A DNA stretch of 45,785 nt from a bacterium (GCA_021783355.1 JAJXTZ010000002.1:1-45785), one strand, 5' to 3'. Counted from the first letter of the stretch, positions 2,725 through 45,785 are shown. Translations and numbers: made by a program. The notes: generated from the letters alone by a model not told the origin.

Positions 2725-2726
2725 GG

Positions 2727-12670: not shown

Positions 12671-12673
12671 AAG

Positions 12674-12761
12674 CTGTCCACAAACGTGGATAACCCGTTA
12701 TTCACAGGATAAATCGTTATTTTTAAATGATTTATTTATTTACAACCCAAGCGGTGGATAA
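12674..12761. other. candidate oriC core: DnaA boxes flanking an AT-rich unwinding element
   Basis: CTGTCCACA (12674-12682, 2 mismatches), CGTGGATAA (12685-12693, 1 mismatch, reverse), TTATTCACA (12698-12706, 1 mismatch), GGTGGATAA (12753-12761, 1 mismatch, reverse). Between them, 12709-12745 (ataaatcgttatttttaaatgatttatttatttacaa) is 33/37 A+T in an otherwise very GC-rich window. The coding strand switches here. Confidence 0.75.
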
Positions 12762-12865
12762 GTCCAACTAGCCCCCGCCGGGCCTCAGCGTGCTCACGGA
12801 CGGCGAAGCCTCATCTTAGCGCATTTCATTCCATAGAGTCAACTAGACGATCGCGCGCGTTCGCG

Positions 12866-12894
12866 TTGACAGCCATCGCCCCAATGGCTAGAAT
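12866..12894 (+). promoter_or_regulatory. sigma70-type promoter of the hpf operon
   Basis: TTGACA (12866-12871), 17-nt spacer, TAGAAT (12889-12894). Only 10 nt separate the -10 element from the hpf ATG. Confidence 0.55.
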
Positions 12895-12904
12895 TCCTCC
12901 ACCT

Positions 12905-13429: not shown

Positions 13430-13433
13430 GGCC

Positions 13434-14384: not shown

Positions 14385-15250
14385 GGCGCAAGCACTCCCC
14401 GGACCCCAAGCGCCTGTTCGTGATCACCGGCATGTCCGGCGCGGGCAAGAGCCAGGCCCTGAAGGTCTTCGAGGACTTCGGCTGGTTCTGCGTGGACAAC
14501 CTGCCGATTGCGCTGCTGGACCAGTTCGTGCGCCTGACGCTGAAGACCCCGAGGATGACGCGCGTGGCGCTGGGCATGGACGTGCGCGAAGGCCGCCTGC
14601 TGTCGTCGCTGCCGCTGCAGCTCAAGGAGATGAAAAGCCGCGGCCTGCGCATCAGCGTCCTGTTCCTGGACGCGCCCGACGAGGCGCTGGTCCGGCGCTT
14701 CTCCGAGACGCGCCACCGGCACCCGCTCGGCGGCAAGGTCGGCGACGCCGTGCGCCAGGAGCGGCGCCTGCTGGCCCCGATCAAAGGCGCCGCGGACAAG
14801 GTGATCGACACCGCGCACCTGAGCCTTGGCGAGCTCAAGGAGAAGATCTCCGAAACCCTGGGCCTGACGCGCACGCGCGAGATGACCCTGCAGGTCACCA
14901 GCTTCGGCTACAAGAACGGCATCCCGATCGACGCCGACATCGTGATGGACGTCCGCTTCCTCCCCAACCCGCACTACGTTCCGGGCCTGCGCCGGCTGAC
15001 CGGCCTGGACGGGAAGGTGCGCCGCTACTTGCTGGCCCAGCCCATCGCGCGCCGTTTCCTCGACGACTGGATCAAGCTCGTGACCGCGCTCCTGCCGCAC
15101 TACGTGCGGGAGGGGAAGTCCTACCTGACCATCGCCGTCGGCTGCACCGGCGGCCGTCACCGCAGCGTGTTCTGCACACGCTGGCTGGCCCAGCACCTGC
15201 GCTCAGCCGGGCATCCGGTTCAAGAGTTCCACCGGGACATCTCCGCGTGA
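14381..15250 (+). CDS. rapZ: RNase adapter protein RapZ (YhbJ family P-loop NTPase)
   Basis: FVITGMSGAGKSQALKVFEDFGWFCVDNLP and the C-terminal IAVGCTGGRHRSV motif. The GTG start overlaps the hprK stop. Confidence 0.9.
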   Translation: MRRKHSPDPKRLFVITGMSGAGKSQALKVFEDFGWFCVDNLPIALLDQFVRLTLKTPRMTRVALGMDVREGRLLSSLPLQLKEMKSRGLRISVLFLDAPDEALVRRFSETRHRHPLGGKVGDAVRQERRLLAPIKGAADKVIDTAHLSLGELKEKISETLGLTRTREMTLQVTSFGYKNGIPIDADIVMDVRFLPNPHYVPGLRRLTGLDGKVRRYLLAQPIARRFLDDWIKLVTALLPHYVREGKSYLTIAVGCTGGRHRSVFCTRWLAQHLRSAGHPVQEFHRDISA

Positions 15251-29447: not shown

Positions 29448-29455
29448 GGTGATAA

Positions 29456-29484
29456 AGTGTAAAGCATTCTCCGACGGGAATCAA
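29456..29484 (-). promoter_or_regulatory. candidate sigma70-type promoter immediately upstream of the double ATP-grasp gene
   Basis: On the minus strand: TTGATT (29484-29479), 17-nt spacer, TACACT (29461-29456). Only 8 nt remain before the ATG at 29447. Confidence 0.45.
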
Positions 29485-29511
29485 ATGCGTCCACGACGGG
29501 AGCGGGCGGCC

Positions 29512-30762
29512 TCAGGAAACGGCGGCGTCGATGCTCGGGCGGGACCGCTGGCTCTCGATGAGTCCGACCTTGTCGGTCAGCGCGAGCGCCACCACGGTGG
29601 CGATCAGCGTCGTGGGCAGCAGGCGCACGCCGGTCATGCCCGTCACCACGAGCATCGAGCCGAGCGGGGTCTTGGTGACGCCGGCGTTCGTCGCCGCCAT
29701 CAGCGCCGCCATCAGCACGATCTCGTTGGCTCCGGGAAGGAGCGCGTGGCCCAGGCGGCCGAGGCAGGCGCCGATGAAGAACAGCGGGATGATGAAGCCG
29801 CCTTTCCAGCCCGAGGAGACGGTCAAGGTCGTGCCGGCGAACTTGGCGGCCGCGGCGATCGCGAAGACGGCGGCGACTGAGGGGAGCGACAGGAGGCCTC
29901 CGAGCTGGCCTTCGCCGTAAGTCAGCGCGTAGGGCGACGCGAGGGCCAGCGCGCCCAGCCCGAGCCCTCCCAGGAGCGGCCGGGCCCACGGGGGCAGGCG
30001 CGCGAAAGCCGCCGCGAGGCCGCGCACCCCGGAGGTGAAGGCGGCGGCGACGAGAGCGGCGGCGGCGCCCGCGACCGCGGCCCAGGCGAGGTCGGCCGGG
30101 CGCAGGGGCGCCGCGGTCGGGAAGCGCCACACCGGCGCCAGTCCCAGCCCCGTCAGGACGGCGAAGGCGGCGTAGCCGCACAGGGAGCCGACCACGGCCG
30201 GCATCAGGGCCTCGTAGTACTCGAGGCCGCGCCGGTGCAGGAGCTCCAATGAGAAGAGGGAGGCCCCGAGCGGGGCGCCGAAGAGGACGGTGAAGCCGGC
30301 GGCCATGCCCGTGATGGTCAGGACGCGCCGGTCCGTCGCCCCTAGATCCAGCGCGTCGGCGAGACGGCTGCCGAGGGTGCCGGTCGTCTGGACCAGCGGC
30401 GCTTCCGGGCCCGCCCCGCCGCCGGACGCGATGCACAGCAGCGAGACCGGGATCAGCGAGAGCAGCTCGCGCGAGCCGCGAGCTCCGCCGCGGACGTGGA
30501 TGTTGTCGACCAGGACCTCGACCGAGCCCGACGCGCCGAGCCATCGTTCAAGGAGGCCGACCGCGGCCCCGGTCGCGGCGAGGATCCCGGCGACGGTCCA
30601 CGGCCGGGCGCTCCACGCCGCCGGACCGAGGCGGCCGCTCAGCGCGCGCAGGGCCCAGAGGTAGACCGCCCCGAGCGCCGCGCCGCAGACGCCCGTCAGG
30701 ACGATCGCGGCGGCCAGCCGGCCCCGCAGGACGGGAGAACGGGCTTCGCCGGGCTCGGTCAT
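29512..30762 (-). CDS. ClC-family chloride channel / H+-Cl- antiporter
   Basis: 416 aa, polytopic. GGGAGPEAPLVQ (GxEGP-type selectivity motif region), FGAPLGASLFSLE and a second-half repeat (GGFIIPLFFIGA). Confidence 0.85.
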   Translation of the reverse strand: MTEPGEARSPVLRGRLAAAIVLTGVCGAALGAVYLWALRALSGRLGPAAWSARPWTVAGILAATGAAVGLLERWLGASGSVEVLVDNIHVRGGARGSRELLSLIPVSLLCIASGGGAGPEAPLVQTTGTLGSRLADALDLGATDRRVLTITGMAAGFTVLFGAPLGASLFSLELLHRRGLEYYEALMPAVVGSLCGYAAFAVLTGLGLAPVWRFPTAAPLRPADLAWAAVAGAAAALVAAAFTSGVRGLAAAFARLPPWARPLLGGLGLGALALASPYALTYGEGQLGGLLSLPSVAAVFAIAAAAKFAGTTLTVSSGWKGGFIIPLFFIGACLGRLGHALLPGANEIVLMAALMAATNAGVTKTPLGSMLVVTGMTGVRLLPTTLIATVVALALTDKVGLIESQRSRPSIDAAVS

Positions 30763-30801
30763 GGAGCGAGGGTCCCCATGCCGGGATTCTACCTCTTTGG
30801 T

Positions 30802-32064
30802 CTAGCGGTAGTCGGGGTTCAGTCGCGCGAGGCTTTCTTCCAGGCGCGCCTGGAACCGCGGAGCCAGCACATCCGCGCAGACCGCGTAGCGGATCAGCGG
30901 TTCGGGAGCGCCGGCGGCGTCCCGCCCGGTGAAGTGGACGCCGACGATCCCGGTGTCCGCGATCACCGCGCGGTTGAAGGCCTCGGCGCGGCCCTCGGCC
31001 GGGAGCCTCGCGCCCAGCACGGACTCGGGGACCTTCCAGAGCGTGAAGAAGCCGGCCTCGGTCGCGCAGGCGGGCCGGAGCCCGGCGGCCTTCAGCCGCG
31101 GGATCAGATAAGCCAAGCGCTTCTCGTACAGCCCGCGGATCGCGTCCAGCGCGGCGCGGGCGGCGGCCTCGTCGGAGAGGAACTCGCCGTAGGCGGCCAT
31201 CACCGACGGGACCGGCCCCGAGTCCGCGTTGCCCTTGACCAGCGCGAAGTCCTCGACGAAATCCTTGGAGCCGGCCAGCGCCCCGAGGCGCGCGCCCGGG
31301 TCGTTGAAGGATTTGGACACCGAGTAGAGCTCCAGCCACTCGAGGTCCGGGTAGTCCTTGGCGACGCGGGCGAGGGGGACGCTGGTCCCCGCCGCGGCCA
31401 GCCCCGCGTAAGCCGCGTCGTTGACCAGGCGCATGCCCTTCTCCAGGCAGAACGCGATCAGCTCGCGCCAGTCGGCCTCCGACGCGCCGACGGCGGCCGG
31501 ATTGCCGGGGCGGATCACGTACACCAGGTCGGCGCGGTCGGCCCCGTCGGCTTTGAGCGCCTCCTTCAGGCGCGGCACGCTCAAGCGCATGTTGTCGGCC
31601 GAGACCAGCGGCCACACCGTGCGCTCGGCTCCGTAATACGAGGAAGACCAGGTGCCGATCACGTCGTAGGCGGGGAGGTTCGACGCGACGCGGAAGCTCC
31701 GGCGCCGCGCGGCGCCGGGCAGGTGCAGGCCGCAGGCGAGCGGCACCAGCGCGCCGGCGGTCTTGATCCCGGCGATCGGCAGGACGCGCAGACGAGGGTG
31801 CGCGCGCGCGTCGATCCCGCCGTGCAGGCGGACCATCGCGCCGGCGAAGCCCTGCAGGTCCTTGTCCTCGGCGTAGGTGTGGTGCTCGTAGCCGGGGTCG
31901 GCGGCGTACTTCGCCTGCAGGCGGAGGAGCGCCTCCGGGGGGACGCCGTCGGGATTGCCGAGCGAGAGGTTCAGCGGGTCCTCTCCGGTGCGCTCCTTGT
32001 ACTCGCGCAGGAGCACGTAGATCAGCTGGAAGAGGTTGATCCCGGAGGCGGGGATGCGCCGCAT
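30802..32064 (-). CDS. class I/II PLP-dependent aminotransferase
   Basis: 420 aa: LSLGNPDG, NPGNP-like IRPGNPAA, LVNDAAYAG, and YSVSKSFNDPGARLG carrying the Schiff-base Lys. Substrate not inferable. Confidence 0.8.
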   Translation of the reverse strand: MRRIPASGINLFQLIYVLLREYKERTGEDPLNLSLGNPDGVPPEALLRLQAKYAADPGYEHHTYAEDKDLQGFAGAMVRLHGGIDARAHPRLRVLPIAGIKTAGALVPLACGLHLPGAARRRSFRVASNLPAYDVIGTWSSSYYGAERTVWPLVSADNMRLSVPRLKEALKADGADRADLVYVIRPGNPAAVGASEADWRELIAFCLEKGMRLVNDAAYAGLAAAGTSVPLARVAKDYPDLEWLELYSVSKSFNDPGARLGALAGSKDFVEDFALVKGNADSGPVPSVMAAYGEFLSDEAAARAALDAIRGLYEKRLAYLIPRLKAAGLRPACATEAGFFTLWKVPESVLGARLPAEGRAEAFNRAVIADTGIVGVHFTGRDAAGAPEPLIRYAVCADVLAPRFQARLEESLARLNPDYR

Positions 32065-32084: not shown

Positions 32085-33290
32085 TCAGTAGCTGAACGAC
32101 ACGCCGAGCAGGTAGCTCTGCAGGGTGTAGTTCGTGCGGAAGAAGAGCTCGTACTTCTGGTTGGAGGACGCGGTCGCGATGTTGGCGGTGGCGAGCACCT
32201 TCCAGTGCTCGTTGACGGGCACGGCGAGGTCGAAGGTGAAGTTGTCCTGGTTCAGATGCTCCGCGTCGCTCGTGTAGGCGCCGGAGACGTCCTGCGCGGG
32301 GCGCGACAGGTAGCGGCGGTAGACGTTCAAGTACGAGAACGACATCTCCACGCGCCGCGGGCCCAGGATGGCGGTCGCGCGCGGGCCGATGCGGCGTTCC
32401 TCATACGCGTAATAGTCCGGGTTGAACACGCTCAGCGACGCGTCGTAATGGTTCTGATTGGAGGTCACGCGCGTCCAGCCGCCCTCCAGGCTCAGGAAGA
32501 TCCCGGCGTTCTCCGTCAGGCGCCGGCCCCAGAACAGCTTGCCGTCCACGGACACGGCGTCGTCGCGGCGGGTGTCCGGGGTCAGGTCGCCCGAGGCGGC
32601 GACGAGGTGCTGCTGGCCGTACGAGCGGGCGGTCCAGTTCGCCGAGAGCTTGGCCTTGACCTCCGGGACCGGCGTCGGCGCGCTGCCGGACAGGGTCCAG
32701 GAGAGGTTGTCCGAGTCGAGCGTGCGCGCCTGCGCCTGCTCGCGGCCGAGGCCCTGGCCGACGACGGCGGATTCCAGCGACGAGTAGTTCGGGAACAGGA
32801 TCTTGTACCAGTCGAAGGAGGCGGAGGCGACGCGCCCGCCGCCGAAGTCGTACTCGGCGTCCAGTCCCGCGGACGGCTTGCGGTAGTCGAAGAGGCCGCC
32901 GCCCCAGGACTCGTCGCGGGTCTCGCGCAGGAGCTCCCAGCGGTAGCCGGCCTTGGGCTTGAGCTTGAGCGGGCCGTTCTTCCAGATCCCTTTGACGAGG
33001 AGGGCGTGGCTCATCGAGTCCTGGAAGAGCTGGCCGCCGCTGCCCAGGTCCGTGACGGACTTGGTGCCGCGGTAGTCGAACGCGTAGGTCGGGATGACCC
33101 CCCAGTGCTCGTTGAGCTTGGCGGCGGGGGTCGCCTGCAGGCTGGCGTTCCCCTGCCACGACGAGGCCGATCCGTTCTCGTAGAGCTGGCCGAGCTGGAG
33201 CGCGGAGTCGAAGACCGGCACCCACTCGACGGCGCGGGCCGGGGCCGCCGCGAAGAGCGCGGCCGCGAGCGTCAGGAGGAGGAGCCTCAT
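32085..33290 (-). CDS. hypothetical outer-membrane beta-barrel protein
   Basis: 401 aa from ATG 33290 (ATGA overlap with the upstream gene). Signal peptide MRLLLLTLAAALFAAAPARA, alternating hydrophobic/polar strands throughout, and a C-terminal YLLGVSFSY ending in an aromatic residue. Confidence 0.65.
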   Translation of the reverse strand: MRLLLLTLAAALFAAAPARAVEWVPVFDSALQLGQLYENGSASSWQGNASLQATPAAKLNEHWGVIPTYAFDYRGTKSVTDLGSGGQLFQDSMSHALLVKGIWKNGPLKLKPKAGYRWELLRETRDESWGGGLFDYRKPSAGLDAEYDFGGGRVASASFDWYKILFPNYSSLESAVVGQGLGREQAQARTLDSDNLSWTLSGSAPTPVPEVKAKLSANWTARSYGQQHLVAASGDLTPDTRRDDAVSVDGKLFWGRRLTENAGIFLSLEGGWTRVTSNQNHYDASLSVFNPDYYAYEERRIGPRATAILGPRRVEMSFSYLNVYRRYLSRPAQDVSGAYTSDAEHLNQDNFTFDLAVPVNEHWKVLATANIATASSNQKYELFFRTNYTLQSYLLGVSFSY

Positions 33291-34213
33291 CTCTCGCGGG
33301 GTCCTTGGTCCTCGCCGGGGCCGCCGAAGCGCCAGGTCAGCGCGAAGAGATGCTGGTCGCCGACGTCGGCGCCCGGCCCGAACGCGTAGTCGATGGAGAC
33401 GCCGCGGTAATCGACCCCGAGCCCGGTCTTGAGCCCCGCGAAGCGCCCGGCGTCGGGCGTCTTCGTGTTGAGCCCGCCGCGGAAAGACACCGAGACGTCC
33501 TGCGAGGCGCGCAGGCGGTACTCGGCCCCGATCGCGGCGTAGGTCGGCGCGTGCAGGGGGCCGACCAGGTCCAGGCCCAGGGTCACGGCGTCGCCCAGGC
33601 GCCAGGCCGCGCCGCCGTCCAGGCGGGCGGGCATCGGGTCGGAGACGGAGTCGAACTTGAGCCCGCCGCCGAGGTTGTCGCCGGCGAGGGCGAGGGTCCA
33701 TTCCTCGTCCAGGCGCCAGCGCCCGCCGAAGTCGAAGGTCTGCGAGCGCGCGGTCGAGACGATCTTGGACTGCACGTAGCGGCCCGCGGCGGCCAGCTCC
33801 ACCGGCCCCATCACGGTGCCGTAGACCAGGGAGTAGGCGTCGGCCGTCGGCGAGAAGTCGCCGATGGGGTTGCCCGCGTCGTCGCGCCCGTTGAGCGCGC
33901 CGTATCCGACGTGCAGGAGGCTCAGCGCGAAGTGGTGGACGCCGCGCGTCAGGCCCCAGGCCGCGTAGTCGGAGCCGACGCCGTTGCCGAGGAGCGTGTG
34001 CGTGAAGTACGCCTCCTGGGCGCGGACGTCGTGGACGGCCGCGGGATTGACCGTCACGCCGCGCACGCCGGAGGCCGTCGCCGCCCCGGCCTCTCCCATG
34101 CCGAGGGAGCGCACGTCCTGGATCTGGTTCAGGAAGTCCGCGCCCGCGAGGCTCCCGGCCCGGGCCGGGAAGGCCGGGAGGACGAGGAGTCCGGCGAGCA
34201 GGAGACGCTTCAT
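33287..34213 (-). CDS. PorV/PorQ-like outer-membrane beta-barrel protein
   Basis: 308 aa with a signal peptide. The N-terminal GADFLNQIQDVRSLGMGEAGAATASGVRGVTVNPAAV matches the FL.i...aR..gMGgA..A......NPA signature of the PorV/PorQ family. ATGA overlap with the upstream cargo gene. Confidence 0.65.
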   Translation of the reverse strand: MKRLLLAGLLVLPAFPARAGSLAGADFLNQIQDVRSLGMGEAGAATASGVRGVTVNPAAVHDVRAQEAYFTHTLLGNGVGSDYAAWGLTRGVHHFALSLLHVGYGALNGRDDAGNPIGDFSPTADAYSLVYGTVMGPVELAAAGRYVQSKIVSTARSQTFDFGGRWRLDEEWTLALAGDNLGGGLKFDSVSDPMPARLDGGAAWRLGDAVTLGLDLVGPLHAPTYAAIGAEYRLRASQDVSVSFRGGLNTKTPDAGRFAGLKTGLGVDYRGVSIDYAFGPGADVGDQHLFALTWRFGGPGEDQGPRER

Positions 34214-37200
34214 CGCTGCACCGCGAACTTGATCGTGCGCCGCGCGCCGCCGGACGGGTCGGAGACGACGGCGAGATAGACGCCGCTGGGGAGCGCCCGG
34301 CCCTCCTTGTCGTCGCCGTTCCAGCCCAGGATCTGGCCGGTGGAGTCGGCGTCCAATTCCTTGAGGAGGCGGCCGGAGACGGTGAACACCTTCACGTGCG
34401 CGCCGGCGGTCAGGCCGGCGAACTTGATCCGCGTGTGGCCGAGCGACGGCCGGAACGGGTTCGGGTACACGAAGGCCTGCGAGAGCGTGCCCGCGGCCGG
34501 GGTGATCGAGACCACCTGGAACACCGAGAAATGGTCCGTGGTCCCGGTGACGGAGCGGGCCGCGACGTCGGACTGCGAGTCGAGCAGGCGCCAGCCGGTG
34601 TCCGGGTCGTAGCGCGCCAGGCGCAGGTGGTCCGGGTCGAAGGAGGAGACCTGCGACGCCGTGTAGCCGATCGAGACGCCGACGGGGACGGCGGGCTGGA
34701 TCCCGCCGGTGTTGATCGAGATCGCGATGCCGGTGGGCGAGAGCCCGGGCAGGGGGGGCAGCGACGCCAGGCTCGAGGCCGACATCGAGACCGCGGTCAG
34801 CGTCGTGGCCGTCCCGAACGCGCCGAACGGGACGCTGACGGTGGCCGTCGCGCCGCCGGAGAGCGGCGTCACCACCGTGGCGCTGGAGCCCGCGCTCAGC
34901 GTCGCGTACGGCGGCGCCCCGACCGCGTAGATGCCGTCCGGGTCGTAGACCTGGCCGACGACGACGCTCGAGGACAGGTTCACGAGGTTGTCGCCGTCGA
35001 GGAGCATCTCGAAGACGGAGGTCTGCTGGTTCAGCTTGAAGACGCGCAGGACCGACAGCGGGACGAGCAGGCTCTGCCCGCGCAGGGAGCCGACGGTGAC
35101 GCTGGAGCCGGCCGCGGTGAACGGCATGGAGACGGACAGGAGCTCGCGCCCCTTGCCGGCGGCGGTGTTCGGGTCCGAGTCGCGCACGGCCGCGACCTTG
35201 AGGATGTCGGTCGACACGAAGGTGTTCGGCGCCGCGGCGAAGGCCGCGGTCGCCAGCGCCAGGTCGGCGGCCGAGAGCTCGGAGCGCCCCTGCAGGGTCA
35301 TGCGCACCGGGAAGGCCCAGGTGTTGGCCGGGCAGTCGACGCGCAGGCTGGGGTCGCCGGCGTTGACGATGGTCCCGCCGGCGGTGGTGAGGAGCACGGC
35401 GCTGTAGATGGTCGTGTCCGTGGTCAGCCCGCCGGTCTGGGCGCGCACGACCTCCGCCATGGCCGAGGCGGTGTTCGTGGACCCGAAGAAGGACTGCGCC
35501 GTCCCGGCGGCCCCGGTGACGGCCTGCGTGGACGAGACGCCGTCGGCGGCCGGGAGCGACCCGCTGACGAGGCCGAGGCTCACCACGCCGGAGCCGGAGA
35601 TCACCGAGAAGGTCACGGTGGACCCCGCGATGGGGTTCGAGTAGGCGTCCAGGGCCGTGGCGGTCAGCACCGACGGGACCGAGGCGACGATCGACTGGGG
35701 GTTGGCCGCCACGGCCAGGCTCGACGGCGCCCCGGCGACGATCGTCATCGACGACGACACCGAGGTCACGCCGACGCCGGAATCGGACACCTTGAAGCGG
35801 ATGCCTTGCGCCTTCGTGTAGCTCTGGAACGAGGAGGAGCCCGAGCCGGCCGCCAGGGTGAGGCCGGTCACGCCCAAGGTCCCGCCGCCCGCCGCCGAGG
35901 GGGTCGAGGCGTCGACGGCCGAGATCGAGACGGTCCCGTCGTAGCCGAGCACCTGGCTCCCCCCGCCGTCCTGGGCCTGGACGACGAACTGGAACTGGGA
36001 GCCGGCCTGCGCGGCCGTCGGGACGGTGACGACGAACTGCGTCGGTCCCGAGAAGACGACCGGGGACGAGAGGCCGGTCCGGCCGTCGTCGTCGGTCACC
36101 CGGAACTGGACGGACTCGATCTTGTTGTAGGTCTGCGAGGCGGTGTACGAGTAGGTCGTCCCGGCCGTCAGGGTCAGCGTCGTCACGCCGGCGGAGCCGG
36201 AGCCGGCGATCGAGGTGCCCGACAGGAAGGCCTGCACGTTCAGCGTCCGCGGCAGCGAATAGCTGACCGGGGCGCTGGAGGCGTCGAGGGCGTCCGCCTC
36301 GAACGAGAACGAGCGCCCGACCGTCACCTGCGTGGGCACGGAGATCGAGTAGTGGTCGATGGTCAGCGCGGGCGTGGTGACCGTCATCGTGCTCGACACG
36401 CTCTGGATGCCGAGCGACGAGTCGACGACCTTGAGCGCGATGCCGCCGCCGGCGCTGAACGACTCGTTGTTGATCGTGACCGACCCGGTCGGCGGCATGT
36501 TGACGCTGGCGACCGACAGCGAGCCCGTGGCCGCCGTGTTCGTGCTGTTCCAGACGACCGCCGACAAGGACAGCGTCGCCGAGTAGCCGGCGACCTGCGT
36601 GCTGCCGCTGACGGCGGTGATCGTGACCGGGAAGGACTGCCCGGCGGGGATGCCGGTGGGGATCGTGACGACGAAGCCGTCGGGCCCCGTGACGACGACG
36701 GTCGTGGACAGGCCCACCGCGGTCCCCGGCGACTGCTGGGCCGCCTTGATCTGGATGGATTCGATCTTGTTGTAGGTCTGGCTCGTGATGGTCCCGGTGC
36801 CGTTCGAGATGCCGACCGAGGTCTGCCCGAGGGAGCCGCTGCCCGCCACCAAGGTCCCGTTCAGGTACGGCGAGAGGTTCACCGTGACCGGCCCGCTGGT
36901 CCCCGGGAAGCTGGGCAGCCCGTGGTCGTAGGCGTTGCGCGCGTAGACCGACATCGCGAACGGCACGCCGATCGGCGTCGTCGTCGGGACGACGACGCTC
37001 AAATGGTCGATCGCTTCGCCTTCCATGAAGACGTTGTTGTCCACCGGCGCGAAGTCCAGGGAGGTCGCCCGCACGGTGACGGTCGCCTGCTGGACCGAGG
37101 AGTTCAAGGACGACGAGGTGAAGCTGACCGAGAAGTGGCCGCTGCCGTCGGTGGTGCCGGTCGAGAGAGCCGGCGCCATCGAGCTGCCCAGGACCTCGAA

Positions 37201-38598
37201 TTGGACGGGAATGTCCGGCACCGGGTTGCTCGTGGCGTCGAGGACCGTCGCCGTGAAGGTCACGCTGCTGCCCGGAACCAGAACGAACGAGGAGACGGAA
37301 ACCGAGAACTGGCTCGCCGCAGAGCTGGAGAACGCGACGATCCTATAGCCGTCGGAATAGTAGAGGTCGTTGCCGGCGGGGACGACCACGCCCAGGCTCA
37401 TGCTCTGCGGCAGCGGGAGCGCCCATTTTTTCGCCCCGGTCCCGGTGTCGACGGCGACGAGATATGTCTCCGGGGTTCCTGGATTCGACGAGGTGCCCGA
37501 CGGGGGATAGACATTGTCGAAGGCGAAGAACGCCGTGCTCCCGCCGATGCTGACCGGGCCGGCGGAGGGGGCGTACGCGCCCGCCATGACGCCGCCGCAG
37601 CCGAAAGGGGTCCCGGTCAGGACGACTCCGGTCGTGGAGGCGCACAGATCGAAATTCCAGACGACGGCGCCGGAGGTCGCGTCGAAAGCCGTGACGGTCG
37701 AGCCGTGATGCGTGAACACGAGATTGCCGGTCGCGGCGGGGGGGGTGTCGCCGGCGGCGCCCAAGGCGGTCCAGAGCAGGGAGCCGGCCGGGCTGAAGGC
37801 CTTGAGGTCGCTCCCGGTATTGAAGTAGAGCGCTCCGGACGCCCCGACGCTCACGCTGCCATTGAGACCAGAACCGCCGACCGACCAGCCGGGAGTCCCG
37901 TCGGCAGCGGCGTAGGAGTAGAGGGTTTCGGAGCCGCTATTCGTGGGCGCGTAGACTGTGGCTCCGTCCGGAGACAAGGCTCCCGCCAAGAACGGCGAAC
38001 CCTGAACGGCGAACCAGCGCCGCGTGCCGGTCGATGGGATCGCCGTGTAGCAGGAGATCACGGATCCGCCGCCGCTCTCGGCCGAACCGTAGTATTGCGT
38101 CCCGTCCGGACCGACGGTCGGCGACGCCGCCAGGCCATAATAGCCGCAAGTCTGGTTGGACCAGTTGACGCTCCCCACGCTCGTGCTTAACGAGACCGCG
38201 ATGGTTTGACTCGAAAGCGAGGCGGTGGAGGACACATAGACCTGGCCGTCGTCCGACACGGCGGGTTGGGAAGCGCTGATAAGTCCCAGAGGGAAGGTCC
38301 ATTTCGTCGTGCCGTCCGGGTTGAGGGCGACGACCTGATAATTGTTGCCCGAGGCGACCGACGGGACGTAGAGCGCGCCGTCCGGGCCGATGGAAACGCT
38401 GTAGCCGGAAGAGAGATTGGAGACGCCGATCGTCTTGAAGAACTGGAGTTGGGGCTTGGCGGGCGCGGAGTAGGTCGTCGAGCTCGTGTGCTGGGCGTTG
38501 CCCAGGTACATCGGCCACGGGCTCTGGGCGGGGCCGGCGGCGCGCGCGGCGGAGGCGGCGGCCGGGACGAGCAGGGCGGCGAGGAGGAGGCGCCTCAC
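34210..38598 (-). CDS. large secreted beta-propeller + Ig-like repeat protein with T9SS-type C-terminal sorting domain
   Basis: 1462 aa from GTG 38598 (GTGA overlap with the FecR-like gene). Signal peptide RRLLLAALLVPAAASAARA. PQQ/BamB-like repeats (GPDGALYVPS, SDDGQVYVSS, GPDGTQYYGS, SPDGATVYAPT, GASGALYFNT). Big-like Ig domains with an internal tandem duplication. The C-terminus (VYPNPFRPSLGHTRIKFAGLTAGAHVKVFTVSGRLLKEL...WNGDDKEGRALPSGVYLAVV) matches the Por-secretion-tail / FlgD-Ig pattern. Confidence 0.8.
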   Translation of the reverse strand: MRRLLLAALLVPAAASAARAAGPAQSPWPMYLGNAQHTSSTTYSAPAKPQLQFFKTIGVSNLSSGYSVSIGPDGALYVPSVASGNNYQVVALNPDGTTKWTFPLGLISASQPAVSDDGQVYVSSTASLSSQTIAVSLSTSVGSVNWSNQTCGYYGLAASPTVGPDGTQYYGSAESGGGSVISCYTAIPSTGTRRWFAVQGSPFLAGALSPDGATVYAPTNSGSETLYSYAAADGTPGWSVGGSGLNGSVSVGASGALYFNTGSDLKAFSPAGSLLWTALGAAGDTPPAATGNLVFTHHGSTVTAFDATSGAVVWNFDLCASTTGVVLTGTPFGCGGVMAGAYAPSAGPVSIGGSTAFFAFDNVYPPSGTSSNPGTPETYLVAVDTGTGAKKWALPLPQSMSLGVVVPAGNDLYYSDGYRIVAFSSSAASQFSVSVSSFVLVPGSSVTFTATVLDATSNPVPDIPVQFEVLGSSMAPALSTGTTDGSGHFSVSFTSSSLNSSVQQATVTVRATSLDFAPVDNNVFMEGEAIDHLSVVVPTTTPIGVPFAMSVYARNAYDHGLPSFPGTSGPVTVNLSPYLNGTLVAGSGSLGQTSVGISNGTGTITSQTYNKIESIQIKAAQQSPGTAVGLSTTVVVTGPDGFVVTIPTGIPAGQSFPVTITAVSGSTQVAGYSATLSLSAVVWNSTNTAATGSLSVASVNMPPTGSVTINNESFSAGGGIALKVVDSSLGIQSVSSTMTVTTPALTIDHYSISVPTQVTVGRSFSFEADALDASSAPVSYSLPRTLNVQAFLSGTSIAGSGSAGVTTLTLTAGTTYSYTASQTYNKIESVQFRVTDDDGRTGLSSPVVFSGPTQFVVTVPTAAQAGSQFQFVVQAQDGGGSQVLGYDGTVSISAVDASTPSAAGGGTLGVTGLTLAAGSGSSSFQSYTKAQGIRFKVSDSGVGVTSVSSSMTIVAGAPSSLAVAANPQSIVASVPSVLTATALDAYSNPIAGSTVTFSVISGSGVVSLGLVSGSLPAADGVSSTQAVTGAAGTAQSFFGSTNTASAMAEVVRAQTGGLTTDTTIYSAVLLTTAGGTIVNAGDPSLRVDCPANTWAFPVRMTLQGRSELSAADLALATAAFAAAPNTFVSTDILKVAAVRDSDPNTAAGKGRELLSVSMPFTAAGSSVTVGSLRGQSLLVPLSVLRVFKLNQQTSVFEMLLDGDNLVNLSSSVVVGQVYDPDGIYAVGAPPYATLSAGSSATVVTPLSGGATATVSVPFGAFGTATTLTAVSMSASSLASLPPLPGLSPTGIAISINTGGIQPAVPVGVSIGYTASQVSSFDPDHLRLARYDPDTGWRLLDSQSDVAARSVTGTTDHFSVFQVVSITPAAGTLSQAFVYPNPFRPSLGHTRIKFAGLTAGAHVKVFTVSGRLLKELDADSTGQILGWNGDDKEGRALPSGVYLAVVSDPSGGARRTIKFAVQR

Positions 38599-40253
38599 GG
38601 GAGCAGGCCCGCCTTCGCGAGGATCTTGGGTTCGACGACGAAATCGATGGTGCGGCCGTGGAACTCGGTGGCGGAGATGGTCTGCTCGAAGTTGTACTTC
38701 AGCAGGGTGTCCAGGTAGGTCTGGCCGCTGGTCACGCCGCCGAAGTCGGCGGTGGTGGCCAGGCGGCCGTCGTCGCCGACGACGAAGAAATCGTAGGTCT
38801 CCTGCGAGCCGTCGGCGGCGTAGGTGATCGTCGCGCGGTCGTGGAGGACGCCGGAGCCGTCGGGGGTGGAGGTCGCGCTGGCGCGGGCCGCCGACTCGCA
38901 GGACGTGGTCGTGCAGACGGTCTCGGCCATGCCCGCGCCGTTCCAGATGCGGGTGTTGATGCCGCCGGCGACGTAGTCGTAGCTGGTGATGCCGGAGCCG
39001 GAGGCCGGCTGCCAGCCGAACTTCTCGGTGCCGTCGATGCGGTACGAGTAGTTGTCGAAGAGCGTGGACCAGAAGCTGGAGCCGGATTTGACGGTGCGGT
39101 AGGCGTTGAGCGTGGCGTCGTAGAAGGTCTTGTCGGCGGTCAGGGTCGTGCTGACCAGGTGGCCGCCGGTCGCGAACTCCTGGATGGAATCCTGCGTGTT
39201 CGAGCGGCCGGTCTCGTAGGCGGTCACGTAGTAGTCGGGCGCCGTCCCGTCCTTGCCGCCGAGGTAGCGCGTGGCCAGCGTCAGGTCGGTCGGCAAGGTC
39301 TTGTTGAACTGCGCCTGGTAGTAGAAGTAGTCGAAGCGCCCGTCGCGCGAGTTCAGCGCCACCAGCTTGAACGAGTCGGCCGCCGGGCGCACGACGTACT
39401 CCTCGAGGCGCACGCGCCGGCCGAACGCGTCGATCATGGTCTTGCCTTCCATGTACTCGGCGCGCCGGGCCTCCTCGGCCGCGGCGGCCTGGACCGCCTC
39501 CTCGGACAGGCCGAGGGCGACCTCGCGCTGGACGTCCTTCTTGAACTCCTCCTTGTCGCCCTCGCCGACGATCTCGGCGGTGGCGGGAGGCGGGGGGAGC
39601 GGAGCCGAGACCGCGGCGACCCGGTCTCCGGCCGCGGCGGGGCCGGCCTTGGTCTGCTTGCCCGCGGGCGAGGCCCGGACGCCGGCGGGGAGGTCCAGGG
39701 GCCGGTCCGGGAGGACGCGGATGGAGCGCATCGGACGCCCGTCGCCCAGTTCCAGCTCCTCGCCCAGCAGGGTCTTGACCGCGACGACGCCTTGGGAGAC
39801 GTCCACCAAGGTCGCCTTGTCGGGCGAGACGTCGACGACGAACCGGGTCCCGCGCACGGCGCAGACGGCCGTCGGGGTGCGGACGTGGAACTCGTGCCGG
39901 TCGACCAGGTGCGAGACCCAGGCCTTCAAGGAGCCCAGGTCCAGCCCCAGGACCACGTCCACGCGCGACCCGGACTGCATCGTGAAGGCGGAGGACGGGC
40001 CCAGGCGGACGTGGCTGCCGTCCGGGAAGTCGAGGTCGGCGGAGGACTGTTCGCCGGTGCGCACGCGGTCCCCGTTCTCCAGCCGGAACGGGGTCTCCGG
40101 GATCCGCTGCCATTGCCGGGTCTGGGGGAAATAGACCTCGGCGACGCCGTCGACGTTCTGGACGTCCACCTGCGCCCGGACGAATCCGGGCGCTAGCAAG
40201 AGCAGGGCGGCAATGATACCCGCAAGCGACCGGCGGGCGGCTCGGTCAAGCAC
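38595..40253 (-). CDS. secreted FecR-domain protein with uncharacterised C-terminal region
   Basis: 552 aa, GTG start at 40253, signal peptide SLAGIIAALLLLAPGFVRA. The N-terminal G.A.V.......W..I.....L..GD.VRTG..S.A.L.F.DGS.V.L...S.F......VRGT.F pattern is typical of the FecR domain. The C-terminal ~330 aa are not recognised. Confidence 0.7.
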   Translation of the reverse strand: MLDRAARRSLAGIIAALLLLAPGFVRAQVDVQNVDGVAEVYFPQTRQWQRIPETPFRLENGDRVRTGEQSSADLDFPDGSHVRLGPSSAFTMQSGSRVDVVLGLDLGSLKAWVSHLVDRHEFHVRTPTAVCAVRGTRFVVDVSPDKATLVDVSQGVVAVKTLLGEELELGDGRPMRSIRVLPDRPLDLPAGVRASPAGKQTKAGPAAAGDRVAAVSAPLPPPPATAEIVGEGDKEEFKKDVQREVALGLSEEAVQAAAAEEARRAEYMEGKTMIDAFGRRVRLEEYVVRPAADSFKLVALNSRDGRFDYFYYQAQFNKTLPTDLTLATRYLGGKDGTAPDYYVTAYETGRSNTQDSIQEFATGGHLVSTTLTADKTFYDATLNAYRTVKSGSSFWSTLFDNYSYRIDGTEKFGWQPASGSGITSYDYVAGGINTRIWNGAGMAETVCTTTSCESAARASATSTPDGSGVLHDRATITYAADGSQETYDFFVVGDDGRLATTADFGGVTSGQTYLDTLLKYNFEQTISATEFHGRTIDFVVEPKILAKAGLLP

Positions 40254-40259
40254 CGGTGA

Positions 40260-40288
40260 AGTATAAGGAGGGGTCCCAAAACTGTCAA
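40260..40288 (-). promoter_or_regulatory. near-consensus sigma70 promoter of the FecR/cargo/barrel operon
   Basis: On the minus strand: TTGACA (40288-40283), 17-nt spacer, TATACT (40265-40260). Only 6 nt remain before the GTG at 40253. A second TTGACG (40294-40289) abuts it. Confidence 0.55.
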
Positions 40289-40319
40289 CGTCAAAAAAGT
40301 TACAGAACCGTCTAAAGCA

Positions 40320-41051
40320 TCAGAAAGACGGGTCGAAGCCGGTCCCGTGCGGGGGCTGATTGCCGCCGTTGCCGTCCCGATTCCCGTTGGTGTTTCCCGA
40401 GGCGCCGTTCTGGGTGGTGTTGTTGACCGTGACAGAGGTGGTCCCGTTGGCGGTGACGCCGTTGCCTCCGGCGGCTCCCCCGGAGTCCGGCGTCGCGGGC
40501 GGCAAGGTGTCGGGCTGGCCCCAGGTCACGCCCGGGGAGCGGCCCGCGTCCTTGGCCTTGCTCTGGTCCAGAGCGACGAAGCCGCCCCCGTCCACCGCGT
40601 GCTGGCGTGCTGGAGCCGCGTTCGAGTACTGGGGCAGCTGACCTTCGGTGCGGATCAGGGCGCCCGGTTTGGAATAATTGGGCGGCGTCTGGGTGGCGCC
40701 GCCGGAGGTGCCGCCCGTCGAGCCCCCGGTGTCCGCGGCCGCCCGGGCGCCGAGCCCGCGGCCGACGGCGTGGGTCAGGCGCAGGGGGTGCCAGAAGCCG
40801 GAGGAGGAACGGCGCGAGGTGAATCCGCTCGGGGCGTAGGCCGCGCGGGAGGTTGCGGCGCCGAAGGCGGAGCGGGCCGGAGCCGCGGCCGGCGCGGCGG
40901 GGACGAACGGCGCGGGGGTGGAGAAACCCGGGCGTCCCGCCGGGGCGCTGGGGGGGGTGCTGCGACCGTTATAAAGGACGTAGGCTTTCCCGGAATCGGC
41001 GAGCGCCAGGGACGGAATCAGGACGGCCGCGGCGAAAAGCACGGTTTTCAT
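40320..41051 (-). CDS. hypothetical secreted low-complexity (Pro/Ala then Gly/Asn/Thr-rich) protein
   Basis: 243 aa from ATG 41051. Signal peptide MKTVLFAAAVLIPSLALA, with GGGGGAAG just upstream. The ORF-track extension to 41201 lacks a signal peptide context. Confidence 0.6.
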   Translation of the reverse strand: MKTVLFAAAVLIPSLALADSGKAYVLYNGRSTPPSAPAGRPGFSTPAPFVPAAPAAAPARSAFGAATSRAAYAPSGFTSRRSSSGFWHPLRLTHAVGRGLGARAAADTGGSTGGTSGGATQTPPNYSKPGALIRTEGQLPQYSNAAPARQHAVDGGGFVALDQSKAKDAGRSPGVTWGQPDTLPPATPDSGGAAGGNGVTANGTTSVTVNNTTQNGASGNTNGNRDGNGGNQPPHGTGFDPSF

Positions 41052-41260: not shown

Positions 41261-43753
<2,493 letters not shown>

Positions 43754-45528: not shown

Positions 45529-45785
45529 TTACCAGCGCCGGGCGACGGTGAAGCGGTGGGTTCCGCCGAGCTCGCCCATGGGCACCGCCGCGTAGTCCAG
45601 GCGCCAGCGCGCGCCGTCCAAGCCCACGCCGAGCGTCAATCCCCGCGCCGCGTCGAAACCGGAGCCGCCGGTGATGGCGGACTGGGTGGCGTAGCCGGCG
45701 CGCAGGCGCACGCCCTTGCGGGCGCGCAGCTCGCCGCCGAAGGCGAAGTCGCTGCCGGTGCCGCGCGGGCCGTCGGTCCATTCGG
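45529..45785 (-). CDS. PorV-like outer-membrane barrel, 5' end outside window
   Basis: The frame stays open from 45785 down to the stop at 45529. The C-terminal ...GLTLGVGLDGARWRLDYAAVPMGELGGTHRFTVARRW parallels the C-terminus of the 33287-34213 protein (GLKTGLGVDYRGVSIDYAFGPGADVGDQHLFALTWRF). Confidence 0.5.
   Translation of the reverse strand, partial: EWTDGPRGTGSDFAFGGELRARKGVRLRAGYATQSAITGGSGFDAARGLTLGVGLDGARWRLDYAAVPMGELGGTHRFTVARRW

What the first reader, a model, noticed from the sequence alone, without database searches (positions are those of the whole stretch)
32085..40294. Four-gene overlapping operon: FecR-domain protein, giant T9SS-CTD cargo, PorV-like barrel and an unknown barrel, a possible self-contained surface-display module
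A near-consensus promoter (TTGACA-17-TATACT) precedes four genes chained by 4-nt stop/start overlaps (38595-38598 GTGA, 34210-34213 ATGA, 33287-33290 ATGA), which implies fixed stoichiometric co-expression. Gene 2 ends in a domain matching the type IX secretion C-terminal sorting signal (VYPNPF...KVFTVSGRLLKEL...WNGDD..G..LPSGVYL). Gene 3 has the N-terminal FL....R..GMG.A......NPA signature of PorV/PorQ, the barrel that binds such CTDs and shuttles cargo in Bacteroidota. Gene 4 is a 401-aa barrel with no recognisable family. In Flavobacterium the giant adhesin gene sprB is followed by sprF, a dedicated outer-membrane partner required for its secretion. The layout here is analogous but uses a PorV-like protein plus an extra barrel and a periplasmic FecR-domain protein. 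The genomic background (very high GC, hprK, DciA-like gene) does not look like classical Bacteroidota. This could be a dedicated cargo-shuttle-pore cassette, either an accessory to a T9SS or a reduced, uncharacterised export or anchoring route.
Basis: partly seen in the sequence, partly recalled or inferred. Interest (0 to 1): 0.72.

Follow-up and report, generated by a model that had tools for sequence, protein, structure and literature searches.

The report
Elusimicrobial four-gene surface-protein display cassette
Bacteria of the phylum Elusimicrobiota, which has no recognised type IX secretion system, carry repeated four-gene cassettes that pair a giant surface protein bearing a type-IX-style sorting tail with its own PorV-like barrel, a second new barrel and a FecR-domain partner, which looks like an undescribed way of putting large proteins on the cell surface.

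Summary
Four minus-strand genes with GC3 of about 0.96 are chained by GTGA/ATGA overlaps behind a TTGACA-17-TATACT promoter.

- **g1:** signal peptide, FecR domain, and a 290-aa domain with no match.
- **g2:** beta-propeller, Ig-like repeats, and a T9SS type-A C-terminal domain (CTD).
- **g3:** PorV/PorQ-family barrel.
- **g4:** a roughly 16-strand barrel with no known family.

The host is an Elusimicrobiota MAG. The g4 and g1 families were found only in genomes labelled Elusimicrobia wherever a label exists.

In 80 related loci, often several per genome, the same four components recur in two gene orders:
- g1-cargo-g3-g4 in the window's clade;
- g1-g4-cargo-g3 in most others.

Every cargo whose C-terminus is visible ends in the CTD and is followed by a PorV-like gene. 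Cargo N-termini are unrelated to one another. Some g4 barrels carry a cargo-type domain fused to their N-terminus.

Best reading: a lineage-specific surface-display module. The PorV/PorQ-like barrel would hold the cargo's CTD, as PorQ holds PorZ, and g1 plus g4 would form a dedicated outer-membrane export or tether unit. That second role is inferred, not shown. I could not test whether a canonical T9SS core is absent from this genome.

Verdict: new variant of a known kind, moderately high interest.

The parts
40260..40288 (-). Sigma-70-type promoter TTGACA-17-TATACT. The -10 hexamer ends 6 nt before the g1 GTG start, so the transcript is probably leaderless.
   Evidence: 11 of 12 consensus positions, the only site in 12.5 kb, 0.3 expected; an equivalent promoter upstream of g1 in 30 of 50 related loci, with GTG 6-8 nt after the -10 in all six Type-A relatives.
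38595..40253 (-). g1: 552-aa exported protein. It has a signal peptide, a FecR-type beta-sandwich (residues about 30-180), a disordered Pro/Ala-rich linker (196-232) and a conserved C-terminal beta-rich domain (about 265-552) of unknown fold family.
   Evidence: PF04773 at 61.6 bits; LipL45-like. AF2 pLDDT 85.9. PupR 6ovk at E=4e-6 for the N-domain, and no PDB match for the C-domain; 337 homologues, all named ones from Elusimicrobia.
39783..40070 (-). FecR domain of g1 (residues 62-157). The N-terminal roughly 70 residues before and overlapping it weakly resemble the LapA/MpIBP retention (cell-surface anchoring) module.
   Evidence: 5ix9, TM 0.75 over 67 columns; 5ix9 at E=0.057. NF033682 hit in 19 of 44 family members, best E=1.1e-6. 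The one score shown (23 bits) is below the 50-bit cut-off.
34210..38598 (-). g2: 1462-aa cargo. It has a signal peptide, a PQQ-like beta-propeller (about 30-440), Big_1 and further Ig-like repeats, and a C-terminal sorting domain.
   Evidence: designed and archaeal cell-surface propellers; 3hxj.
34219..34470 (-). C-terminal domain of g2 (residues 1377-1460), a T9SS type-A / FlgD-Ig-like CTD.
   Evidence: TIGR04183 at 24.4 bits against 23, and the PorZ CTD region at 54.7 bits; 5m11 residues 650-757 at E=7.8e-12; the motif ...SGVY...K.AV.[KR] at the extreme C-terminus is conserved in 21 cargoes.
33287..34213 (-). g3: 308-aa PorV/PorQ-family (FadL-like) outer-membrane barrel, the proposed receptor or anchor for the CTD.
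   Evidence: NF033709 at 105.8 bits against 90; PorQ 55.5 and PorV 29.6, both far below their equivalog cut-offs. PorV 6h3i_F is the only PDB hit; conserved F-L...R..G.GEA...NPA N-terminal motif. Type-B orthologues score 134-189 bits.
32085..33290 (-). g4: 401-aa outer-membrane beta-barrel of about 16 strands, from a family found only in genomes labelled Elusimicrobia where a label exists. Conserved residues concentrate in the putative extracellular loops and lumen, for example the DExWGxGL[FY]D motif at residues 126-135. The protein ends in an aromatic residue (...GVSFSY).
   Evidence: no family. AF2 pLDDT 88.5; only generic barrels, TM at most 0.47. (distribution); 534 representative clusters among 1.84 billion proteins; no relation to g3.

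Best explanation
This is one copy of a multi-copy, four-component cell-envelope module found here only in Elusimicrobiota. Its likely job is to place a giant, variable, beta-rich protein on the cell surface.

Shown:
- All four products carry Sec signal peptides.
- They are transcribed from one conserved strong promoter in front of g1.
- The same four families stay together in two different gene orders.
- The only element shared by the otherwise unrelated cargoes is a C-terminal T9SS-type / FlgD-Ig-like domain, and the gene that follows it is always a PorV/PorQ-family barrel.

Inferred, step 1. The cargo's CTD is bound non-covalently by its cognate PorV/PorQ-like barrel g3, and this holds the cargo on the surface. 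PorQ holds PorZ and PorV holds PorU in the same way through uncleaved CTDs, and PorP/SprF barrels hold type-B CTD adhesins.

Inferred, step 2, more weakly. The invariant pair g1+g4 is the cassette's own outer-membrane export or tether unit. g4 would be a roughly 16-strand barrel able to carry a polypeptide segment through its lumen. g1 would be a partner whose FecR / retention-module-like N-domain stays in the periplasm, with its Pro/Ala linker and C-domain engaging or threading the barrel. On this reading the module does not depend on the SprA/PorKLMN machinery, which has not been reported in this phylum.
For: Family assignments:
-.

Taxonomy:
- One search identifies the window as a GCA_027325765.1 Elusimicrobiota MAG.
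- the g4 scan of 185,579 species genomes gave 249 places, and the best 80 are all Elusimicrobia or unclassified 'bacterium' MAGs. The g1 and g4 homologues carry only Elusimicrobia names, apart from one 'PVC group' label.

Conserved linkage:
- 10 loci have the order g1-cargo-g3-g4. In 52 loci g1 lies directly upstream of g4.
- All 10 Type-B cargoes whose end is visible are followed by a PorV-like gene.
- 20 of 24 PorV-like genes are preceded within 400 nt by a CTD. Of the other four, at least two (L004, L011) are cut by a contig end.
- The Type-A order is a derived clade nested inside Type-B, so the genes stayed together through a rearrangement.
- There are several copies per genome. A second CTD-cargo / PorV-like pair with a 4-nt overlap lies 5 kb away in this same genome.

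Cargo:
- Cargo N-termini fall into at least 9 unrelated groups, so only the CTD is shared.
- Cargo domains are adhesin-like.

g4 and g1:
- g4 is a confident barrel.
- A subset of g4 proteins carry an N-terminal domain of about 250-550 aa joined by a Pro/Ala linker. That domain is homologous to internal repeats of the giant cargoes, down to E=1e-31. This domain fusion ties the barrel to cargo-type surface domains.
- g1 has a FecR fold, a disordered linker and resemblance to the retention module.

Expression:
- The promoter is conserved.

Literature:
- T9SS is reported only in the FCB superphylum.
- TXSScan found no secretion system of any type in two Elusimicrobia genomes.
- PorZ and PorU are anchored by PorQ and PorV through uncleaved CTDs (PMC8545088).
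Against: - There is no experimental or co-folding evidence for any of the proposed contacts.
- I did not test for a T9SS core in this genome or in the complete relatives CP096137.1 and OY969767.1. The TXSScan result concerns two distant, reduced Elusimicrobia.
- A 16-strand barrel cannot pass a folded propeller or beta-helix, so export through g4 would require unfolded transit of proteins of 1,400 to more than 3,300 aa with no obvious energy source.
- A monophyletic set of orphan g4 paralogues sits among housekeeping genes without g1, cargo or g3. The family therefore includes members with some other role, possibly as porins.
- Conservation in g4 is concentrated in loops that would face outward or fold into the lumen, which also fits a specific channel.
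- g4 variants with an N-terminal passenger-like domain still have g1 upstream. This complicates the model in which g1 threads through g4.
- The TIGR04183 score is marginal in the window's cargo (24.4 against 23).
- The retention-module similarity is weak: the one score shown is below the curated cut-off.
Confidence: 0.5

Rival explanations
1. The cassette is an accessory to a T9SS-like translocon encoded elsewhere. The cargo would cross the outer membrane through a divergent SprA-type pore or another general pore such as a secretin. On this reading g3 is only the cargo-specific receptor or anchor, and g1/g4 are stabilising or regulatory partners.
For: - The CTD and the PorV/PorQ family are bona fide T9SS-associated families.
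- Bacteroidota have analogous cargo-specific cassettes, such as sprB-sprF and porP-porE with type-B cargo, and all of them depend on SprA.
- A 16-strand barrel is small for giant folded cargo.
- The whole genome could not be searched.
Against: - T9SS is reported only in the FCB superphylum.
- None was detected in the two Elusimicrobia genomes analysed by TXSScan.
- No paper links Elusimicrobia with T9SS.
- Every visible CTD cargo has its own PorV-like gene. Canonical type-A cargo instead shares a single PorV.
- No T9SS component turned up among the module's neighbours that I examined.
Confidence: 0.22
2. g1+g4 is a solute or nutrient channel with a periplasmic or surface partner, and it is co-expressed with a giant surface binding protein and that protein's anchor. 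This would be a functional analogue of a polysaccharide-utilisation-type locus: the cargo captures substrate and g4 imports it. g1+g4 would play no part in exporting the cargo.
For: - The nearest structural neighbours of g4 are porins and specific channels such as PorB, OmpG, CymA, OccD/K and FadL.
- Orphan g4 paralogues sit in housekeeping contexts.
- Conserved residues lie in loop L3 and other outward or lumen-facing loops, as they do in porin constriction loops.
- Cargoes carry carbohydrate-related folds such as beta-helix, pectinesterase-like and CarboxypepD_reg domains.
- FecR domains normally act in receptor-coupled signalling.
Against: - g1 has no membrane anchor or anti-sigma domain, and no sigma factor or TonB-dependent receptor lies beside it.
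- Foldseek TM-scores are low (at most 0.47) and generic for any barrel.
- g4 variants carry cargo-type domains at their N-terminus, which points to a role in protein display rather than solute uptake.
- The cargoes are too diverse to suggest one substrate class.
Confidence: 0.18
3. Ordinary adjacency: an unremarkable secreted protein happens to lie next to an ordinary porV homologue and two unrelated envelope genes.
For: 4-nt overlaps are common in compact bacterial operons, and downstream metabolic genes may share the transcript here.
Against: The same four families co-occur in dozens of loci from about 70 assemblies, in two gene orders, with a conserved promoter.
Confidence: 0.02

Closest known systems
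T9SS attachment-complex pairs PorZ-PorQ and PorU-PorV (Porphyromonas gingivalis)
   Same: - A surface protein keeps an uncleaved Ig-like CTD and is held on the cell by a FadL-family outer-membrane barrel.
- g2's CTD matches the PorZ CTD best.
- g3 scores higher against PorQ than against PorV.
- PorZ, like g2, is built from beta-propellers plus a CTD.
- There are two barrels and two non-barrel proteins in each system.
   Different: - g3 reaches only the broad PorV/PorQ family cut-off, not the PorQ or PorV equivalog cut-offs.
- g2 is not a PorZ homologue outside the CTD.
- There is one barrel per cargo, encoded next to it and repeated many times per genome.
- The host phylum lies outside the FCB superphylum.
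- g1 and g4 have no counterparts in the T9SS.
Type-B CTD cargo with cognate PorP/SprF barrel and PorE-like periplasmic protein (sprB-sprF; PG1035-PorP-PorE)
   Same: - The cassette logic is the same: a giant adhesin gene sits next to a dedicated FadL-family barrel that anchors it through its C-terminal domain.
- A periplasmic partner is often encoded alongside.
- There are many paralogous cassettes per genome.
   Different: - The CTD here is type-A / FlgD-Ig-like, not type B.
- The barrel belongs to the PorV/PorQ family, not to PorP/SprF (TIGR03519 is not met).
- The partner is a FecR-domain protein rather than PorE (TPR, beta-propeller, OmpA).
- There is an extra 16-strand barrel.
- The Bacteroidota cassettes depend on SprA.
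LapA/MpIBP-type giant adhesins retained in their outer-membrane pore by an N-terminal retention module
   Same: - The concept is a folded N-terminal domain that stays in the periplasm while a linker occupies an outer-membrane channel and the rest of the protein is displayed.
- The N-terminal roughly 70 residues of g1 resemble the 5ix9 anchoring domain and the NF033682 model.
   Different: - The one score shown for this similarity is below the model's cut-off.
- No T1SS (ABC transporter, MFP, TolC) or LapG/LapD genes are present.
- g1 is Sec-exported and is only 552 aa.
- The pore would be a monomeric 16-strand barrel, not a TolC trimer.
FecR/PupR anti-sigma regulators of cell-surface signalling
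   Same: They share the periplasmic FecR-type beta-sandwich (PF04773; Foldseek 6ovk at E=4e-6).
   Different: - g1 has a cleavable signal peptide in place of the cytoplasmic anti-sigma domain and transmembrane helix.
- No ECF sigma factor or TonB-dependent transducer lies beside it.
- It has an unrelated 290-aa C-terminal domain.
Autotransporters and two-partner secretion (type V)
   Same: - A single outer-membrane barrel is dedicated to one large beta-rich surface protein.
- A subset of g4 proteins have the layout N-terminal passenger-like domain, linker, C-terminal barrel.
   Different: - There is no homology to the PF03797 autotransporter barrel or to Omp85/TpsB, and no POTRA domains.
- The cargoes have no common N-terminal TPS domain.
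- The barrel has about 16 strands, and the cargo is a separate polypeptide recognised, if at all, through a C-terminal domain.

Membership tests
Type IX secretion system (canonical) | Cargo carries a type-A C-terminal sorting domain (TIGR04183 / PF18962) | tested here: met
   TIGR04183 at 24.4 bits against a cut-off of 23 (marginal). PorZ CTD 5m11 at E=7.8e-12. PF18962 was not reported at E<=0.1. Type-B-order cargoes pass FlgD_ig PF13860 (31-40 bits against 27).
Type IX secretion system (canonical) | PorV/PorQ-family FadL-like barrel (NF033709) | tested here: met
   105.8 bits against 90; paralogues and orthologues score 134-189 bits.
Type IX secretion system (canonical) | Orthology to PorV (NF033710) or PorQ (NF033711) at equivalog level | tested here: not met
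   PorV 29.6 bits against 250; PorQ 55.5 bits against 220.
Type IX secretion system (canonical) | SprA/Sov translocon, PorK/L/M/N (GldKLMN) motor and ring, and PorU sortase encoded in the genome | not testable with these tools
None of these genes is in the window or in the neighbours I examined. Indirect evidence: TXSScan found none in two other Elusimicrobia genomes.
Type IX secretion system (canonical) | Host belongs to the Fibrobacteres-Chlorobi-Bacteroidetes superphylum | tested here: not met
   Elusimicrobiota MAGs throughout.
Type-B CTD / PorP-SprF cassette | PorP/SprF-family barrel (TIGR03519) and a type-B CTD on the cargo | tested here: not met
   no TIGR03519 or type-B CTD hit for g2-g4 at E<=0.1; a Type-B-order g3 scores 20.3 bits against 90.55.
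Type-B CTD / PorP-SprF cassette | Cargo gene lies next to its own cognate FadL-family barrel gene | tested here: met
   a CTD is followed within 400 nt by a PorV-like gene in 20 of 24 cases. Of the other four, at least two (L004, L011) are cut by a contig end.
FecR-type anti-sigma regulator | FecR periplasmic domain PF04773 | tested here: met
   61.6 bits against 24. PupR 6ovk.
FecR-type anti-sigma regulator | N-terminal cytoplasmic anti-sigma domain plus a transmembrane helix, with an adjacent ECF sigma factor and TonB-dependent transducer | tested here: not met
   a cleavable signal peptide is followed directly by the FecR domain; the neighbours are ClpC and a low-complexity secreted protein. 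The FecR equivalog NF007296 scores 17 bits against 385.
Two-partner secretion / Omp85 | Omp85-type barrel with POTRA domains and an N-terminal TPS domain on the cargo | tested here: not met
   no such hits; cargo N-termini fall into at least 9 unrelated groups.
Classical autotransporter | 12-strand PF03797 barrel fused to the C-terminus of the passenger | tested here: not met
   no PF03797 hit and about 16 strands. Only a minority of g4 proteins carry an N-terminal passenger-like domain.
LapA-type retention module (NF033682) | N-terminal retention module above the model's cut-off, with an adjacent T1SS | tested here: inconclusive
   19 of 44 g1 homologues hit the model (best E=1.1e-6), but the window's own g1 does not at E<=0.01; the one score shown is 23 bits against a cut-off of 50. 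Foldseek 5ix9, TM 0.75 over 67 columns. No T1SS genes are nearby.

The most novel reading that the evidence does not exclude
The three invariant proteins would form a self-contained, CTD-dependent outer-membrane export-and-anchoring pathway that works without SprA/PorKLMN. They are the FecR / retention-like g1, the 16-strand barrel g4 and the PorV/PorQ-like barrel g3. This would amount to a previously unrecognised secretion route in a phylum where standard tools detect no protein secretion system. It might also reflect the ancestral CTD / FadL-barrel anchoring unit from which the Bacteroidota T9SS attachment complex was built.
Probability: 0.3. Interest if true: 0.85.

Novelty: new variant of a known kind. 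Interest (0 to 1): 0.66.

Why it matters
The T9SS sorting domain and PorV-type barrels are treated as hallmarks of the Bacteroidota/FCB type IX system. Here they occur as one-to-one cargo/barrel pairs in a phylum outside FCB. They are locked to two protein families that have no annotation at all.

If the module works without a SprA translocon, three things follow:
- It would define a new and much simpler route for displaying giant adhesin-like proteins.
- It would explain how Elusimicrobia, for which TXSScan reports no secretion systems, build their surface.
- It would show that CTD/FadL-barrel anchoring is older and more widespread than the T9SS itself.

Even on the conservative reading, the finding has practical value. 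It gives names and a testable role to two orphan families: g4, with about 530 representative clusters, and the g1 C-domain. It also provides a compact four-gene cassette that could be tried for heterologous surface display.

Tried and rejected
- **g4 as a remote PorV/PorQ paralogue.** Tested by profile-profile comparison and rejected (hhalign probability 3%).
- **A named structural relative for g4.** Foldseek against the PDB gave only generic barrels with TM at most 0.47. A profile search against PDB sequences found nothing.
- **A known fold for the g1 C-terminal domain.** Foldseek and the profile search against the PDB gave no credible match.
- **Flanking dnaG/rpoD or tmk-holB-metG-tatD genes as extra module components.** Rejected. 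They are housekeeping genes in conserved synteny.
- **The downstream aminotransferase and CLC channel as module members.** Rejected. They are not conserved beyond the closest relative.
- **The upstream 243-aa low-complexity secreted protein as a fifth component.** It is conserved only in L002.
- **A shared N-terminal export domain in the cargoes, as in two-partner secretion.** None was found.
- **N-terminally extended g4 variants replacing g1.** They do not, because g1 is still present upstream.
- **Literature linking Elusimicrobia with T9SS, PorV or FecR.** Searches found nothing relevant.
- **Whole-genome search for T9SS core genes.** Not possible.


Full report
**Observation**

The region 32085-40294 holds four minus-strand genes: g1 38595-40253, g2 34210-38598, g3 33287-34213 and g4 32085-33290. 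In this roughly 70% GC window all four show GC3 of 0.95-0.97. The long ORFs that overlap them on the other strand show GC3 of only 0.57-0.75, so these are the real reading frames.

The three GTGA/ATGA overlaps are present. They are conserved in related loci such as L006 and L009.

The promoter TTGACA-17-TATACT at 40288-40260 is the only sigma-70-like site in 12.5 kb, against 0.3 expected. A site matching at least 10 of 12 positions precedes the g1 homologue in 30 of 50 related loci. In all six close relatives the GTG start follows the -10 hexamer by 6-8 nt, which implies a leaderless mRNA.

Each of the four proteins starts with a Sec-type signal peptide.

An aminotransferase gene follows g4 after 20 nt with no terminator. 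That neighbour is not conserved elsewhere.

**What the four proteins are**

*g1*
- It has a FecR domain (PF04773, 61.6 bits) and is closest to the Leptospira LipL45/Lsa33 FecR-domain lipoproteins.
- Its AlphaFold model (pLDDT 85.9) shows an N-terminal beta-sandwich, a disordered Pro/Ala-rich linker at residues 196-232, and a beta-rich C-terminal domain of about 290 aa.
- The sandwich matches the PupR cell-surface-signalling domain 6ovk at E=4e-6. The C-terminal domain has no credible PDB match.
- The first 70 or so residues resemble the cell-surface anchoring (retention) domain of the MpIBP/LapA adhesins. Foldseek gives 5ix9 with TM 0.75. The profile search gives E=0.057. The NF033682 model is hit by 19 of 44 family members. 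The one score shown, 23 bits, is below the 50-bit cut-off, and the window's own g1 is not among the hits.
- It lacks the cytoplasmic anti-sigma domain and membrane anchor of true FecR regulators.

*g2*
- It consists of a PQQ-like beta-propeller, Big_1 and further Ig-like repeats, and a C-terminal domain.
- That domain passes TIGR04183 (24.4 bits against 23) and matches the solved PorZ CTD at E=7.8e-12.

*g3*
- It passes the PorV/PorQ family model (105.8 bits against 90). It does not pass the PorV or PorQ equivalog models, and it scores higher against PorQ.
- Its only PDB sequence hit is PorV 6h3i_F.

*g4*
- It has no Pfam or NCBIfam hit.
- Its model (pLDDT 88.5) is a barrel of about 16 strands. 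Foldseek finds only generic barrels, with TM at most 0.47.
- It is not detectably related to g3.

**Host and distribution**

The window matches Elusimicrobiota MAG GCA_027325765.1 and lies near the chromosomal origin, next to dnaA, dnaN, gyrB and gyrA.

g4 homologues (49 proteins) and g1 homologues (337 proteins) carry only Elusimicrobia names wherever a name exists. A scan of one genome from each of 185,579 species with the g4 profile found 249 places. The best 80 are all Elusimicrobia or unclassified MAGs, and some genomes hold two or three copies. Against 1.84 billion representative proteins the g4 profile finds only 534 clusters. One cluster I checked is labelled 'PVC group bacterium'.

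**Is the gene set conserved?**

Yes. I annotated the 80 loci with profiles built from the window's proteins.

- *Type A.* Ten loci, the window's clade, have g3 directly upstream of g4. All six with enough flank also show g1 followed by the CTD cargo, giving the order g1-cargo-g3-g4.
- *Type B.* Fifty-two loci have g1 directly upstream of g4.
  - In all 10 of these where the end of the next giant gene (1,900-3,000 aa) is visible, that gene ends in the CTD and is followed by a PorV-like gene scoring 134-189 bits on NF033709.
  - In 14 others a single ORF of more than 3,300 aa runs off the 10-kb flank.
- *Permuted.* L067 and L081 have the order cargo-g3-g1-g4.
- *Type C.* Seven loci hold an orphan g4 among housekeeping genes. 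These form one separate clade.
- *Order of events.* Type A is nested within Type B in the g4 tree, so the four genes stayed together through a rearrangement.
- *A second pair nearby.* Within this same genome, a second CTD cargo with a 4-nt overlap onto a PorV-like gene (153.5 bits) lies just past the window's right edge.

**What the cargoes share**

Cargo N-termini fall into at least nine unrelated groups. Their domains are adhesin-like: propellers, CarboxypepD_reg/PEGA/Ig repeats and beta-helices.

The only common element is the extreme C-terminal domain, with the conserved pattern ...IYN.AGELVR...W[DN]G.ND.G..VASGVY...K.AV.K. The machinery's invariant parts are therefore g1, g4, g3 and the CTD.

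**A clue to g4**

Some g4 proteins (P0203, P0209, P0214, and the g4 genes in L080 and L065) carry an N-terminal extension of 250-550 aa joined by a Pro/Ala-rich linker. P0200 carries an fn3 domain in the same position. The extension is homologous to internal repeats of the giant cargoes, down to E=1e-31.

This domain fusion ties the barrel to cargo-type, presumably extracellular, domains. The layout of passenger, linker and barrel recalls autotransporters. g1 is still encoded upstream of such a variant.

**Mechanism**

Well supported: this is a co-transcribed, Sec-dependent envelope module specific to Elusimicrobiota, in which each giant CTD protein has its own PorV/PorQ-like barrel.

Inferred by analogy: g3 binds the CTD and holds the cargo on the surface. 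The analogies are PorZ-PorQ and PorU-PorV (uncleaved CTDs held by FadL-family barrels, PMC8545088) and type-B CTD cargo with PorP/SprF and PorE (PMC9143113).

More speculative: g1+g4 is the cassette's own outer-membrane export or tether unit. The FecR / retention-like domain of g1 would act on the periplasmic side, and its linker or C-domain would engage the barrel.

Published surveys place the T9SS only in the FCB superphylum. TXSScan detected no secretion system of any type in Elusimicrobium minutum or in the termite group 1 endosymbiont. This fits an autonomous route but does not prove one.

**Caveats and rivals**

- I could not search any whole genome for SprA, GldKLMN or PorU.
- A 16-strand barrel cannot pass folded giant proteins.
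- Orphan g4 paralogues and loop-centred conservation are compatible with a channel function.
- No interaction has been tested.

The main rivals are an accessory cassette for a translocon encoded elsewhere (about 0.22) and an uptake channel co-expressed with a surface binding protein (about 0.18). Chance adjacency is excluded by the conservation survey.

**Novelty**

Half of the module, the CTD and the PorV/PorQ barrel, belongs to known families and is already auto-annotated as such in some MAGs. I found no description of the four-component cassette, of its g1 C-domain and g4 families, or of its presence as one-to-one cargo/barrel pairs outside the FCB superphylum. I rate it a new variant of a known kind. 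There is roughly a 30% chance that it is a genuinely autonomous secretion and anchoring pathway.

Noticed in passing
window 45532-45783 (- strand), continuing beyond the window end; L083 10554-12742: There is a second PorV/PorQ-family gene (296 aa, NF033709 at 153.5 bits). Only its last 84 codons lie inside the window. Upstream of it, with a 4-nt overlap, sits an NHL/propeller-type protein that ends in a T9SS-type CTD (TIGR04183 at 22.2 bits, just under the 23-bit cut-off; it also matches the CTD regions of the PorZ and M6-like protease models). This is a second cargo/barrel pair 5 kb from the first. The contig ends before any g1/g4 pair could be seen.
   Followed up: yes
window 40253-40288 (- strand) and the equivalent sites in L002, L006-L009: The g1 GTG start codon lies 6-8 nt after the -10 hexamer in all six members of the window's clade, which implies a leaderless mRNA. 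Many Type-B loci have ATG 12-13 nt after the -10. The consensus-like TTGACA...TATACT promoter stands out in genomes of 65-70% GC.
   Followed up: partly
L016, L021, L024, L028, L030, L034, L055 (g4 homologue at about 10000-11200 in each full-length locus): A monophyletic group of orphan g4-family barrels has no g1, cargo or PorV-like neighbour. In L024 and L055 the barrel gene sits between a leuA-like gene and a 520-aa gene of unknown function, downstream of the ribosomal-protein operon and a few genes upstream of what look like exbB/exbD/tonB genes (judged by eye only). It may be a housekeeping outer-membrane protein from which the module-associated barrels diversified.
   Followed up: partly
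P0203, P0209, P0214, P0200; L080 1539-3752; L082 1851-3965: These g4 barrels carry N-terminal extensions joined by a Pro/Ala-rich linker. The extension is either a cargo-type repeat domain of about 250 aa, present once or twice, or an fn3 domain. The layout resembles an autotransporter.
   Followed up: partly
window 40320-41051 (- strand): A 243-aa ORF immediately upstream of the promoter has a signal peptide followed by low-complexity Gly/Ser/Thr/Asn/Pro-rich sequence. It is only partly conserved, in the closest relative L002, and has no family hit.
   Followed up: partly
window 26985-32064 (- strand): Directly downstream of g4 on the same strand lie an aminotransferase gene (20 nt after g4, no terminator), a CLC chloride-channel gene and a gene for a double ATP-grasp protein (D-Ala-D-Ala ligase-like plus L-amino-acid ligase-like). 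They may be co-transcribed with the module in this genome, but the linkage is not conserved.
   Followed up: partly
window 1-15250: This is the chromosomal origin region, with dnaA, dnaN, gyrB and gyrA on the minus strand and hprK and rapZ on the plus strand. A SAM decarboxylase gene (PF01536) lies at 1332-2369.
   Followed up: no
L001 957-2030 and 1-728, compared with window 41261-43753: The ClpC gene is intact in the window (830 aa) but is split into two called genes (357 and 396 aa) in the NCBI MAG contig DAIEEW010000234.1. This is probably a frameshift or assembly difference between two assemblies of nearly the same organism.
   Followed up: no
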